The notes under the pieces: model-generated | What the model saw: only the letters and a program-made list of their open reading frames with translations | The model's database searches: none | Told to the model about the DNA's origin: nothing | Position numbers and translations under genes: made by a program | Shown: positions 41,160 through 49,721 of the stretch, piece after piece | How positions within the stretch are numbered: the first letter of the stretch is position 1 | Layout of the letters: each line of letters opens with the position of its first letter | Source: the human T2T-CHM13v2.0 reference genome, Homo sapiens | DNA: 64,000 bases | Assembly: GCF_009914755.1 (NCBI RefSeq) | Contig: NC_060933.1 | Reading direction: 5' to 3' (one strand)

Positions 41160-41443
41160 GTAATCCCAGCACTTTGGGAGGCCGAGACGGGTGAGTCACC
41201 TGAGGTCGGGAGTTCCAGACCAGCCTGGCCAACATGGAGAAACCCCATCTCTACTGAAAATAACAACAACAAAAAAAATTAGCTGGGCGTTGTGGAGGGC
41301 ACCAGTAATCCCAGCGACTCAGGAGGCTGAGGCAGGAGAATCGCTTGAACCCAGGAGGCACAGGTTGCAGTGAGCCGAGATTGAGCCATTGCACTCCAGC
41401 CTGGGGGACGGGAGTGAAACTCCGTATCAAAAAAAAAAAAAAA
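41160..41443 (+). mobile_element. AluSp-like, 5'-truncated, upstream of ORM1
   Basis: CATGGAGAAACCCC diagnostic; TSD GAATACTTTCTGA at 41147-41159 and 41445-41457. Confidence 0.92.
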
Positions 41444-42164
41444 TGAATACTTTCTGAAAGTATTTATTCATACAAATAAAGACTTGACCCGTGAGGTAGG
41501 AACACAAATGGGCCACGGAATCACTCATTCCACAGAATATACCGAGTGCCCTTGAAGTGCTGGGCACTGCTCCAGGATTGGGGGCGTATTGGTGAAAGAG
41601 AAGCAAGCTGCCTGCTCAGATGGCAGGGAATGGGGGAAAACAGGGAGACAGTTTCCTGTTTGAGATGTTGGGAGATGCTTCGAGTAGTATATTTACTGGA
41701 AATAGACATTCAACTTGGATGTCCCTTTTTGGAAATGTGCCTGCGTCCAGGGCTGGGTTGGGGCCCCATTGAACTTTGGCTCTGACACAGCTGTTGCCAC
41801 ACTCAGTGGAACTGAATCTATGTTTGTCTTCCCCGGCATCCTTCACCCCAACTCTCCCCGCCACAACATACATCCCATGCCAGCCTGGGGACCCTCAAAG
41901 GTGGCTTCATCATTAGGTTTGTGGCTGGGTCCCACTGAAGTAAGTCTTGGCACTCAGAGGGATAGGAATTGAATGAAGACATGAGATTCCTCTGCGGGAG
42001 GCCTCTCTAGGAAATCTGTGGACTCACACGTTTACTAATGTTGCTGCAGCCCCGCACCCACCTTGGCCTTGGGCAGCCATACTCTAGGGCTTTTGTAACC
42101 TCTCCATGTGAGGAACTCAAATTAGACCTGGGTTTGGAGGCGGTGCTCCGAGCTGGCCTTTGGG

Positions 42165-42268
42165 GGAGGTTTTGTGCGAGGCATTTCCCAAGTGCTGGCA
42201 GGATTGTGTCACAGACACAGAGTAAACTTTTGCTGGGCTCCAAGTGACCGCCCATAGTTTATTATAAA
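42165..42268 (+). promoter_or_regulatory. ORM1: ORM1 proximal promoter: C/EBP-type elements and TATA box
   Basis: TATAAA at 42263-42268, 60 nt before ATG; upstream TTTTGTGCGAGGCATTTCCCAAG...GATTGTGTCACA resembles the AGP C/EBP-binding region. Confidence 0.75.
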
Positions 42269-42327
42269 GGTGACTGCACCCTGCAGCCACCAGCACTGCC
42301 TGGCTCCACGTGCCTCCTGGTCTCAGT

Positions 42328-42441
42328 ATGGCGCTGTCCTGGGTTCTTACAGTCCTGAGCCTCCTACCTCTGCTGGAAGCCCAGATCCCATTGTGTGCCA
42401 ACCTAGTACCGGTGCCCATCACCAACGCCACCCTGGACCAG
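42328..42441 (+). CDS. ORM1: ORM1 exon 1 (coding part)
   Basis: MALSWVLTVLSLLPLLEAQIPLCANLVPVPITNATLDQ / gtgagt. Confidence 0.97.
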
Positions 42442-46629: not shown

Positions 46630-47906
46630 AGGTGGATGGGGTGGGGAGAGTTCAGGCATGTGGTGCCTATCACAAGGACCTTATTCCAGTATTACCATGG
46701 CCATCGGGGGAGGCACGTTGTGGGGACCAGGCTGGAGGCAGGAAGGCCTGAGTGAAGGCTGCTGTGGGCAACTAGGCAAGAGGCGGTTGCCTGGGCCAGG
46801 ACAGGGCAGGGCAGGGAAGGGCTGGGGTGATGCAGAGGGCTTGGGGCCCAGGCCAGAGGGGCTGGGTGTCTCCATGGACGTGTTCTTAGGGTGCTCACCT
46901 GGGAGACCCAGAAGAAGGAGATAACACGTAAGGGTGAGGCTGGTCCCTGGAAATCAGCTGACATCCTGCAAATGTGGAGCCCTGAGGTGGAGCCAAGCCC
47001 GAGGCACAGCCCACTCAGTGGCACAAGCCACAAAGGGCCGGCCTCACCCCAACCTGAGTGCTCGTGATTGACAGCCTCTTGTTACGTGAGGGAAGCAGCA
47101 CCCCTTCCGTGGCAGAAAAGTTGGGCCTGAATTGTTTGAGCAATTCCACGTGTGCAGCTGCGTATACCATCCAGGGTGATAGGACCATGAGCCCGAGGCC
47201 CTGATGTCCTGGGGTCTAGTCCTGTGTCCACAGGCACCACTCCCCTTTGTACCTCCTGTCCCAACAGCCAAGCTCCACAGGGCCAAGACTACAGCATCCT
47301 TTGCTCAGCACCCAAACCACAGCTGTGCCCACAGCACGGAGGCTGGGGACACCGAGCTGATGTCCTCAGAAGGCAAGTGGACAGGACAGCCTCTGGGGTC
47401 CCACAATGTCCTGGAACTGAAGGCTCAGAACCTACAGGAAGTTTGTCCATTTCAGTGTTACTTTCAGTGAGACACCATTTTCAACCATACTCAGGAGGAT
47501 CCGCTGAAAAATGAAACAGAAATGAGTCATGATGGGCAGAGCAGGGAGAAGCAAGGGAGACGAGAAGTGGGGAACATGGAAGAAAAAGCCACGTGAGGAA
47601 GAAACCAGAGGTCAAGAGAAAAAGAATCATGGAGGTAGAGGAAGCAAAAAACACACATAACAAAGAATGTGGACTTTGGGTCAGACCAATGTGAGTTTAA
47701 ATCCAGGTTCTCTCCCAAACCAGTTTGGGCAGATGGCCCATTGGAACCCCACTCTCCTCATCAGTAAAAGGGGGGCAGAGTGAGGGTCCTGAGGGTTAGC
47801 ACATGGACTGTGTGAAGCAGACAATGCCCAGTGCTTAGCACCGGAATCAGGGTCTAGCAGGTGCTCCCTAAATGGCAGGTGCTGTTTGCTATTGAAAGTA
47901 CTGGAA

Positions 47907-48233
47907 GGCTGGGCGCCATGGCTCACGCCTGTAATCCCAGCAATTTGGGAGGCTGAGGTGGGTGGATCACCTGAGGCTGGGAGTGCAAGATCAGCCCGAC
48001 CAACATGGAGAAACCCTGTCTCTACTAAAAATACAAAATTAGCCAGACGTGGTGGTGCATGCCTGTAATCCCAGCTACTCGGGAGGCTGAGGCAAGAGAA
48101 TCACTTGAACCCGGGAGGCGGAGGTTGCAGTGAGCCGAGATTCCACCACTGTACCCCAGCCTGGGCAACCAGAGCAAAACTCAGTCTCAAAAAAAAAAAA
48201 AAAGAAAAAGAAAAAAGAAAAAAAAAAGAAAGA
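47907..48233 (+). mobile_element. AluSp-like, downstream of ORM1
   Basis: GACCAACATGGAGAAACCC diagnostic; full dimer with A/G-rich tail. Confidence 0.93.
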
Positions 48234-48559
48234 AAGGAGCACTGGAGAGTCCAGGTGCATACTCTTGTAGACAGCAACTTGCTGTGTGCCTCATTTACAT
48301 CTCTGGCCTCAGTCAAAAGGGACTTGGCTAGGCAGCCCCACCTCAAGGCCCTCCGCAGTTGAAAGATTTATGGTTCTGAGATAGGCAAAGGGGGAAAACT
48401 GGAGAAACAGAAGCCACCAGAGGGAGGCAGGCAGAGCACCCAACAGGTCCCCTGGGAAAGGGCTTGGCTGGGCATCAAACCTACCACCCCATAAACTTGA
48501 CATTGAAGGCAAAAGTTAATGACATACAGCAGAGACACGGATGGCTTTGGGTATTTTTT

Positions 48560-49468
48560 TTGTCTTCTTTTCTTTTTTTAAGATCAATATTCATTCTTCA
48601 TTTGCCCTCGTAACGAAAATAGATTTTTAAATGCCTCAAATATACAAACATCATTGATGCACACACATTCCAGAAATGCAGAGGTATGCTGCTGCCACGG
48701 GGTAGGGGTGCGGGAGGCGGCCTGGCCTCATGGCCGCAGACCGTGCCCCAGCCCGGGCCTGGCAGGTAGCTGGCCACTGATAAATGCCACTGGGATCCTA
48801 GGAGAAGCTGGGGACCATGCGTGAGGTACTGAAGGGGACCATGGTGGATGGCATCCTGGGCACTTTGTAGCTTGTCTGAGGGAAAGGCCTCTGCTGCCAT
48901 AGAAAAGCTGGACACATGTCACCCTGGGGCCCTGACATCCTAAAATGCCCCACTGACTACCAGTCACTAGGAGAAAGGTCTCCGGCTATGCCCTTCCCAG
49001 TGATGCTTGCCCCAGAGTGACTGGTCACAGGTGGGGGACAGGTTTGCTCCAGAAACCGTAGGCCTTTCTTGTCTGGCCCCCTAAAGAGGACCCAAGATCA
49101 GGAAAACTCCCCAGTTTAAAAAAATATCTGTCCATCTGTATATAAAATACCTATTATTAGCTGGAGTTGCACACATGCAGGACCAGGAGAGACTGCCTGA
49201 GGTTCTGCCTGGACCGAAGGAGGCCTCGCTCACAGCACCTCTGTGAGGGGACTGGTGCTCCTGGGAAGTCACTTCTCTTGGTGACCGAGCTGACACCCCC
49301 TCCACTTGGAAAGCACAGGGACTGAGCAGGCGGGACCTGTGCTGGAGGGAGACCCTCCTGGTGAGGAACTATGCGGGCCTTCTGGGCCTCAGCAGCTCCA
49401 GCCCACTCCTGGCCTGGCAGGCCACCTGCCCACCCACCCACCCATCTGCCTCTGGGCCCCCAGTGAAG
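48560..49468 (-). other. AKNA: AKNA 3'UTR (end uncertain)
   Basis: Unique sequence after stop, ending at an A-rich tract on the - strand near 48555-48580. Confidence 0.55.
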
Positions 49469-49721
49469 TCAGAAGAGGCAGGAGCCCCGCAGGCTGTGAG
49501 CCTGGCGCAGGTCGGCTGACAGCGAGCTTCTCATCTGCCTGGTGGTAGAGCGGACGCTCTCGGCAGCCTGCACGGCCCGGCTCAGGGCCTTGTTGAGCTC
49601 CTCTAGGTCGCCCAGGTCGAGCTGGATGGAGTGCCGGTGTCTCCGGGCTGGTGGGGGAGAGGCTGTGGGCGGCCACTTGGCAGCTGGTTGGGCTGAGGTA
49701 GGTCCTGCAGGCGCATAGTAC
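49469..49721 (-). CDS. AKNA: AKNA last coding exon (~22)
   Basis: [11 protein letters not shown]...LRGSCLF-TGA (stop = + strand TCA 49469-49471). Confidence 0.94.

What the first reader, a model, noticed from the sequence alone, without database searches (positions are those of the whole stretch)
41160..49470. Single-copy orosomucoid locus: ORM2 is missing between ORM1 and AKNA
Seen: exactly one ORM gene (42328-45551); AKNA's stop codon follows 3.9 kb later with no second promoter, exon set or duplicated flank. Established: the human reference order is COL27A1-ORM1-ORM2-AKNA, with ORM1 and ORM2 as a tandem duplicate roughly 6.8 kb apart (spacing from memory). Inference: this is an ORM2-null haplotype (NAHR deletion or ORM1/ORM2 3' hybrid), a retained unduplicated haplotype, or an assembly collapse. 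If real, it would make no AGP 'A variant', which binds several basic drugs differently from the F1/S forms, so it could matter pharmacogenomically.
Basis: partly seen in the sequence, partly recalled or inferred. Interest (0 to 1): 0.85.

Follow-up and report, generated by a model that had tools for sequence, protein, structure and literature searches.

The report
Single orosomucoid gene, ORM2 absent
This copy of human chromosome 9 carries only ORM1, the main gene for the drug-binding plasma protein orosomucoid, and lacks its neighbour ORM2; this looks like the one-copy allele of an already known copy-number variation.

Summary
The window has one orosomucoid exon set (CDS 42328-45551), and AKNA's stop codon lies 3.9 kb downstream. 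No second ORM-like sequence appeared elsewhere in T2T-CHM13. RefSeq's table lists ORM1 and no ORM2.

The gene is pure ORM1. 180 of 180 compared mature residues equal the solved AGP1 chain 3kq0, against 161 of 180 for AGP2 chain 3apu. Gln38/Val174 is the F1 type.

ORM2-type proteins of gorilla and gibbon form a supported clade apart from this gene. ORM2 is therefore old, and its absence here is most likely a secondary loss by unequal crossing-over between the roughly 6.8 kb tandem units. If the crossover lay between the units, it is 3' of codon 174.

I could not test for assembly collapse, because reads are off.

The locus is a published multiallelic copy-number variant. A pangene-graph paper already lists ORM1 among the gene-copy differences between GRCh38 and CHM13. 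The finding is real and correctly read, but already known. Its practical value is as a caution when CHM13 is used as a mapping reference.

The parts
41147..41158 (+). Left 12-nt target-site duplication of the upstream Alu
   Evidence: An exact 12-mer is repeated at 41445-41456.
41159..41444 (+). Upstream Alu. It is 5'-truncated, in direct orientation, and has an A-tail. It is a possible left border of the about 6.8 kb ORM unit.
   Evidence: It is a masked repeat at 41157-41454. It is 79-83% identical to other Alus in the genome (query 2561-2844).
42263..42268 (+). TATAAA box, 24-29 nt upstream of the annotated ORM1 start
   Evidence: Read from the sequence. Function is inferred.
42292..45673 (+). 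ORM1 gene (RefSeq NM_000607.4), six exons. It is the only orosomucoid gene found in the assembly.
42328..42441 (+). Coding exon 1: signal peptide and mature residues 1-20. It ends with Gln38, the F1/F2 state.
   Evidence: 20 of 20 identical to 3kq0. AGP2 chains have Arg at the last residue. Codon position.
42857..42999 (+). Coding exon 2
   Evidence: 47 of 47 identical to both AGP1 and AGP2 chains, so not diagnostic.
43212..43282 (+). Coding exon 3, ORM1-type
   Evidence: 23 of 23 identical to 3kq0 and 18 of 23 to 3apu.
43984..44091 (+). Coding exon 4, ORM1-type. It lines the ligand pocket and is the most divergent exon.
   Evidence: 35 of 35 identical to 3kq0 and 24 of 35 to 3apu.
44243..44346 (+). 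Coding exon 5, ORM1-type. It holds Val174 (44326-44328), the last site that tells ORM1 from ORM2.
   Evidence: 34 of 34 identical to 3kq0 and 32 of 34 to 3apu. Codon position.
45486..45551 (+). Coding exon 6 with the stop codon
   Evidence: 21 of 21 identical to both paralogues, so not diagnostic.
45645..45650 (+). AATAAA polyadenylation signal of ORM1
   Evidence: Read from the sequence. The annotated transcript ends at 45673.
45674..46572 (.). 899-nt spacer between the ORM1 3' end and the AKNA 3' end. It holds no ORM exon or promoter.
46573..49468 (-). AKNA 3' UTR (select transcript NM_001317950.2)
47904..48242 (+). Downstream Alu inside the AKNA 3' UTR. It is in direct orientation, 6760-6771 nt from the upstream Alu. 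It is a possible right border of the ORM unit.
   Evidence: It is 86-91% identical to other Alus for its best matches.
49469..49721 (-). Last coding part of AKNA, with the stop codon at 49469-49471

Best explanation
T2T-CHM13 carries a genuine one-unit allele of the orosomucoid tandem array: COL27A1 - ORM1 - AKNA, with the ORM2 unit gone.

The remaining gene is an intact ORM1 of the F1 type (Gln38/Val174). It has its own promoter, six exons and a poly(A) signal. This haplotype should therefore make the F1 form of alpha-1-acid glycoprotein and no A variant.

The most likely origin is unequal crossing-over (non-allelic homologous recombination) between the roughly 6.8 kb ORM1 and ORM2 units of a two-unit or larger ancestor, which removed exactly one unit. 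If the exchange lay between the two units, it was 3' of codon 174 (window 44329 onwards). The candidates are intron 5, exon 6, the 3' flank, or the Alu at 47904-48242.

Shown: one gene in the assembly, its ORM1 identity, and the age of the ORM2 lineage. Inferred: that the assembly is right here, that the loss arose by NAHR, and that the unit is bounded by the two direct Alus.
For: One exon set in the window: 34 of 34 significant HSPs out of 62 fall in 42328-45548.

One ORM locus in the genome. The gene's DNA gave 1 full-length match among 41. Gorilla ORM2 protein gave 5 of 5 matches at this locus. RefSeq lists ORM1 only.

ORM1 identity. 180 of 180 compared residues equal AGP1 chain 3kq0, against 161 of 180 for AGP2 chain 3apu. 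All 19 differing sites are in the ORM1 state. Gln38/Val174 is F1 by the definition quoted in PMC7950198.

ORM2 is old. Gorilla ORM2 and gibbon AGP2-like form a clade with 98/98 support that excludes the window gene. Macaque and marmoset proteins carry the ORM1-type exon-4 motif.

The locus is known to vary in unit number. Three genes (AGP-A, -B, -B') are described in reviews. Expansions of ORM1/ORM2 occur in all regional groups of the HGDP panel. ORM1 is listed among the gene-copy bubbles between GRCh38 and T2T-CHM13.

Two direct Alus flank the gene 6760-6771 nt apart. That is about the recalled ORM1-ORM2 period.
Against: No reads, no GRCh38 sequence and no other human assemblies could be consulted. 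The assembly's correctness here, the crossover point and the allele's frequency are all untested.

The papers I could read speak of expansions, not losses. None of my ten searches found a description of an ORM2-deletion allele.

About eight direct Alu copies lie in these 20 kb. One pair at about the right spacing is therefore not very improbable by chance.

Matches in closed parts of the reference are not shown.

The three split codons (residues 86, 110 and 146) were not compared with the solved chains.
Confidence: 0.78

Rival explanations
1. Assembly collapse. CHM13 really has ORM1 and ORM2, and the assembler merged the two units into one.
For: Tandem paralogues are a classic site of collapse. 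I could not look at reads. There is no direct evidence for collapse from any call.
Against: The paralogues differ at 19 of 180 compared residues, 11 of them within 35 codons of exon 4. Units this different, and only about 6.8 kb long, should be separated and spanned by long accurate reads; this is inference. The consensus shows no ORM2 state at any diagnostic site. An independent protein-to-genome analysis also reports an ORM1 gene-copy difference between GRCh38 and CHM13 and treats it as a known variant. That analysis rests on the same assembly.
Confidence: 0.05
2. Retained ancestral haplotype. This chromosome never had the duplication.
For: The ORM1 type is the ancestral-looking form. Macaque and marmoset proteins share its exon-4 motif. 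An unduplicated gene would therefore also look like ORM1. Both flanking Alus have matching or near-matching target-site duplications of their own.
Against: ORM2-type proteins exist in gorilla and gibbon and form a clade with 98/98 support. The duplication is therefore far older than any neutral human polymorphism can persist; this is inference from coalescent expectation. The window gene carries the residues that set human ORM1 apart from all five other primate sequences compared, for example at positions 88, 95, 110 and 128. It is identical to the human AGP1 chain at 180 of 180 residues.
Confidence: 0.03
3. Loss in the cell line. The deletion arose in the mole tissue or in culture, and is not an allele that segregates in people.
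For: The source is a cultured cell line (recalled). NAHR can also happen in mitosis. No population data could be consulted.
Against: The locus is a known germline multiallelic CNV with many unit numbers. NAHR that makes gains also makes the reciprocal losses; this is established mechanism and inference here. A late culture event would be present in only part of the cells and would usually not become the consensus.
Confidence: 0.05
4. ORM1/ORM2 fusion gene. The crossover lay inside the gene, 3' of codon 174, so intron 5, exon 6 and the 3' UTR come from ORM2. This is a sub-case of the best explanation.
For: Exon 6 is identical in the two paralogues. A switch after 44328 would therefore leave no trace in the protein. 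The distance from the gene end to the AKNA 3' end (899 nt between them) is the layout I recall for ORM2 in GRCh38, but that would be so under any one-unit product.
Against: Nothing speaks against it. It simply cannot be seen without ORM2 DNA. The target for a crossover between 44329 and the gene end at 45673 is about 1.3 kb, against about 2.6 kb of flank up to the end of the downstream Alu at 48242.
Confidence: 0.25

Closest known systems
Two-gene reference haplotype (GRCh38: COL27A1-ORM1-ORM2-AKNA)
   Same: Same flanking genes and the same ORM1 gene structure. The protein is identical to solved AGP1 at all 180 compared residues.
   Different: One whole unit carrying ORM2 is missing. The GRCh38 layout itself is recalled and was not tested here.
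Three-gene cluster AGP-A, AGP-B, AGP-B' (Dente et al. 1987, as quoted in reviews PMC7950198 and PMC8661375; I read passages only)
   Same: Same locus and same unit type. It shows that the number of units differs between chromosomes.
   Different: That haplotype has two ORM2-type genes. This one has none. The original paper (PMC553631) is not held.
ORM1/ORM2 multiallelic CNV and 'runaway duplication' (Handsaker et al. 2015, as cited; Almarri et al. 2020, PMC7369638, passages read)
   Same: Same locus and presumably the same NAHR mechanism.
   Different: The published passages describe gains. This allele is a loss, down to the minimum of one unit. Handsaker et al. (PMC4405206) is not held. Its supplements and those of Almarri et al. 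were closed and may list losses.
Pangene graph comparison of GRCh38 and T2T-CHM13 (PMC10925376, passages read)
   Same: It names ORM1 among the genes in bubbles of gene-copy, order or orientation change between exactly these two assemblies, and calls it a known event.
   Different: It does not say which gene is missing, and it does not characterise the remaining gene. This report adds that it is ORM1 F1-type and that ORM2 is the absent unit.

Membership tests
ORM1 (alpha-1-acid glycoprotein 1, F1*S group) | ORM1 state at the residues that separate AGP1 from AGP2 | tested here: met
   19 of 19 within-exon diagnostic sites are in the AGP1 state. 180 of 180 compared residues are identical to 3kq0. 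The three split codons were not compared with the solved chains.
ORM1 (alpha-1-acid glycoprotein 1, F1*S group) | F1 allele: Gln38 and Val174 (definition quoted in PMC7950198) | tested here: met
   Q at residue 38 and V at residue 174 of the spliced translation. Definition.
ORM1 (alpha-1-acid glycoprotein 1, F1*S group) | Intact six-exon gene with signal peptide, five N-glycosylation sequons and a lipocalin fold | tested here: met
   The CDS is 606 nt with GT/AG introns. Sequons lie at N33, N56, N72, N93 and N103. Relatives carry Pfam PF00061. The sequence is identical to a solved lipocalin chain.
   The window differs from 3apu and 7oub at 1, 5, 11 and 2 sites in exons 1, 3, 4 and 5. No other ORM-like locus appears in the genome.
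NAHR deletion allele of a tandem paralogue array | Exactly one repeat unit removed, with flanks otherwise intact and colinear | tested here: inconclusive
   One unit and intact unique flanks are seen. That exactly one unit is missing relative to a two-unit haplotype rests on recalled GRCh38 spacing.
NAHR deletion allele of a tandem paralogue array | Crossover located inside paralogous sequence, seen as a switch of paralogue-specific variants | not testable with these tools
   No human ORM2 DNA or GRCh38 sequence is available. From the protein, the switch, if any, lies 3' of 44328.
NAHR deletion allele of a tandem paralogue array | The allele segregates in populations | not testable with these tools
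   Assemblies look-up and reads are off, and supplements are closed. Main texts mention expansions only.
Assembly collapse | Excess read depth and mixed paralogue bases in reads over the merged unit | not testable with these tools

The most novel reading that the evidence does not exclude
The one-unit, ORM2-less chromosome may be a recurrent and not very rare human allele. Homozygotes would then make no A variant of alpha-1-acid glycoprotein at all. That would shift the free fraction of drugs that prefer the A variant.

Because the T2T reference itself carries this allele, ORM2 reads from ordinary samples would pile onto ORM1. ORM2 has Arg38 and Met174, the very states that define ORM1*S and ORM1*F2. 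Mismapped ORM2 reads would therefore mimic those alleles.
Probability: 0.3. Interest if true: 0.45.

Novelty: already known. Interest (0 to 1): 0.22.

Why it matters
Alpha-1-acid glycoprotein is a main plasma carrier of basic drugs. Its F1*S and A variants, from ORM1 and ORM2, bind drugs differently (review passages). A chromosome without ORM2 contributes no A variant, so carriers, and above all homozygotes, could show altered binding of drugs that prefer the A variant.

The more immediate point is technical. The complete human reference T2T-CHM13 lacks ORM2. Reads from ORM2 of ordinary samples have no home there and may align to ORM1. They would bring Arg38 and Met174, the states used to type ORM1*S and ORM1*F2. 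Anyone genotyping ORM1, or quantifying ORM1 and ORM2 expression, on CHM13 should know this.

The biology itself is a known kind of event at a known variable locus.

Tried and rejected
Locating the crossover. This needs human ORM2 or GRCh38 DNA, and no tool here holds it. From protein comparison the last informative site is codon 174 (44326-44328). Exon 6 is uninformative.

Retrieving human ORM1 and ORM2 from the protein database. One search returned 21 proteins, none human. The clusters are at 90% identity and are represented by other primates. I used the solved human chains instead.

Literature.
- 'ORM2' with 'CHM13' found one unrelated paper.
- 'ORM2' with 'pangenome' found only the HGDP paper.
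- 'ORM1' with 'T2T-CHM13' found the pangene paper and one unrelated paper.
- No search found a description of an ORM2-deletion or silent ORM2 allele.
- The library lacks most subscription journals, so this is not proof that none is in print.
- Handsaker et al. 2015 (PMC4405206) and Dente et al. 1987 (PMC553631) are not held.
- The UK Biobank CNV paper PMC13083251 mentions none of ORM1, orosomucoid or AKNA in its main text.
- Supplements were closed. Copy-number tables in the supplements of PMC7369638, PMC10925376 and PMC13083251 may bear on allele frequency.

The Alu-bounded unit. The two direct Alus 6760-6771 nt apart fit the recalled 6.8 kb period. They are only 82% alike by mean column identity, with 255 invariant of 398 columns. 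About eight direct Alu copies lie in the 20 kb, and the GRCh38 spacing is recalled. I keep this as a lead, not a result. Target-site duplications cannot decide it, because a deletion product would again carry matching duplications.

The retained-ancestral reading is rejected for the reasons given under rivals.

An early slip. My first frame for the AKNA terminal exon was wrong. It was corrected.

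
Full report
WHAT IS THERE

The window (T2T-CHM13 chr9:126480001-126544000) holds one orosomucoid gene. Joining the six RefSeq coding exons (42328-42441, 42857-42999, 43212-43282, 43984-44091, 44243-44346, 45486-45551) gives 606 nt. That is 201 codons plus a stop, and every intron has GT/AG ends. A TATAAA lies at 42263-42268, 24-29 nt before the annotated start at 42292. An AATAAA lies at 45645-45650, before the annotated end at 45673. AKNA runs on the opposite strand. 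Its select transcript ends at 46573, leaving 899 nt between it and the ORM1 end. Its stop codon is at 49469-49471, 3918 nt after the ORM stop.

IS THERE A SECOND COPY?

In the window there is none. tblastn of the window's own product and five primate ORM proteins gave 62 HSPs. 34 were significant, all inside 42328-45548, and 28 had E >= 1. The repeat finder on 34000-54000 found only Alu families and a (GATA)n tract, and no duplicated flank.

In the whole assembly:
- The gene's 3382 nt matched itself and 40 scraps of at most 81 nt.
- The 3' flank matched itself and 62 repeat hits. 61 were on the Alu at about 47.9-48.2 kb and one on the masked repeat near 46.4-46.6 kb.
- The 5' flank matched itself and Alu-type hits. 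There were 180 matches, of which 150 are listed. None of the listed ones touches the promoter-proximal part 3' of the upstream Alu.
- Gorilla ORM2 protein hit only exons 1-5 of this one locus, 5 of 5 matches.
- RefSeq's gene table for this assembly has ORM1 and no other gene described as orosomucoid or acid glycoprotein.

One caveat applies. Matches in the few closed regions are not shown.

WHICH PARALOGUE IS IT?

I compared each exon's translation with the solved human chains.

| Exon | Identical to AGP1 (3kq0) | Identical to AGP2 (3apu) |
|---|---|---|
| 1 (mature part) | 20 of 20 | 19 of 20 |
| 2 | 47 of 47 | 47 of 47 |
| 3 | 23 of 23 | 18 of 23 |
| 4 | 35 of 35 | 24 of 35 |
| 5 | 34 of 34 | 32 of 34 |
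| 6 | 21 of 21 | 21 of 21 |
| Total | 180 of 180 | 161 of 180 |

All 19 sites that differ between the paralogues are in the ORM1 state. The three codons split by introns (residues 86, 110, 146) were not compared with the chains. Residue 110 is Val here and Glu in gorilla ORM2. Reviews give 21 or 22 differences in all. Residues 38 and 174 are Gln and Val. That is the F1 allele by the definition quoted in PMC7950198 (passages read). There is no sign of a hybrid within the coding region up to codon 174 (44326-44328). After that point the two proteins are identical, so a switch further 3' would be invisible.

LOSS OR NEVER GAINED?

Five primate proteins from named sources were aligned with the window's product. 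Gorilla ORM2 and a gibbon 'AGP 2-like' protein share the ORM2-type exon-4 motif. They form a clade with 98/98 support that excludes the window gene (6 rows, first 160 residues, because the gorilla entry is a fragment and the gibbon model has an aberrant C-terminus). Two macaque AGP1 proteins and the marmoset protein have the ORM1-type motif.

The ORM2 lineage therefore predates the split of gibbons and great apes. A human chromosome that never had ORM2 would need a presence/absence polymorphism kept for far longer than neutral variation lasts, so I reject that reading (inference). The window gene also carries residues that set human ORM1 apart from all five other sequences, at positions 38, 40, 88, 95, 110 and 128. 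It is an ordinary modern ORM1.

MECHANISM

The locus is a tandem array whose unit number varies.
- Reviews describe three genes, AGP-A, -B and -B'.
- The HGDP structural-variant paper reports ORM1/ORM2 expansions in all regional groups and cites an earlier report of them in Europeans (passages read).
- The pangene paper lists ORM1 among genes in bubbles of copy, order or orientation change between GRCh38 and T2T-CHM13, as a known event (passages read).

Unequal crossing-over between units makes both gains and losses. The CHM13 allele is most simply the one-unit product.

Two Alus in direct orientation flank the gene. One is at 41159-41444 and has a perfect 12-nt target-site duplication. The other is at 47904-48242, inside the AKNA 3' UTR. 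They are spaced 6760-6771 nt apart. It suggests that the unit is Alu-bounded and that the original duplication was an Alu-Alu exchange. This is a lead only. The Alus are 82% alike, several other direct Alus are nearby, and the GRCh38 figure is from memory.

WHAT COULD NOT BE TESTED

I could not test the following:
- whether the assembly is right at this point, because reads are off;
- the exact crossover, because no GRCh38 or ORM2 DNA is available;
- the allele's frequency, because the assemblies look-up is off and supplements are closed.

I rate collapse as unlikely. The paralogues differ densely: 11 of 35 codons in exon 4. The unit is short compared with long reads. No ORM2 state appears in the consensus. 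That is inference.

COMPARISON WITH WHAT IS KNOWN, AND VERDICT

The gene is a plain member of ORM1, and all tested defining features are met. The structure is a one-unit allele of a published multiallelic CNV. The absence of ORM2 from CHM13 is visible in the public annotation. It is implied by a published GRCh38-versus-CHM13 comparison.

None of my ten searches found a paper that characterises an ORM2-less allele or its frequency. The library omits most subscription journals, and the older orosomucoid genetics literature is not held. I file the finding as already known and score it low.

Two things seem useful to pass on. First, the remaining gene is ORM1*F1-type with no coding trace of ORM2. 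Second, ORM2 carries Arg38 and Met174, the states that define ORM1*S and ORM1*F2. ORM2 reads aligned to this ORM2-less reference could therefore imitate those alleles.

Noticed in passing
window 42439-42441 and 44326-44328: The two sites that define the common ORM1 alleles (Gln38Arg for S, Val174Met for F2) are also sites where solved human AGP2 chains carry Arg and Met. This fits an origin of the S and F2 alleles by gene conversion from ORM2. It also means ORM2 reads mismapped to this reference would mimic them.
   Followed up: partly
window 44242-47503, minus strand: A Gnomon AKNA model (XR_008488078.1) has a terminal exon that runs through ORM1 exons 5 and 6 on the opposite strand. It ends one base before the ORM1 exon 5 acceptor. 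This is why the gene row gives AKNA a start at 44242. The curated AKNA transcripts end at 46573 or 48542. It may be an annotation artefact or a real antisense read-through.
   Followed up: no
window 38031-38275: A long imperfect (GATA)n microsatellite lies next to an Alu, inside the masked repeat at 37713-38257.
   Followed up: no
window 39223-41454: A dense cluster of six masked repeats, mostly Alus in both orientations, forms many inverted pairs directly upstream of ORM1. It is a possible substrate for rearrangements at this locus.
   Followed up: no
window 46459-46959: An annotated H3K4me1 hESC enhancer element straddles the AKNA 3' end, in the spacer between ORM1 and AKNA.
   Followed up: no
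proteins P0001 and P0004: The UniRef gorilla ORM2 entry is a 169-aa fragment with an odd C-terminus. The gibbon 'AGP 2-like' model appears to read through from exon 5 into the intron: its residues 104-220 align colinearly to window 43965-44465. Both look like gene-model errors. For that reason only the first 160 residues were used for the tree.
   Followed up: partly
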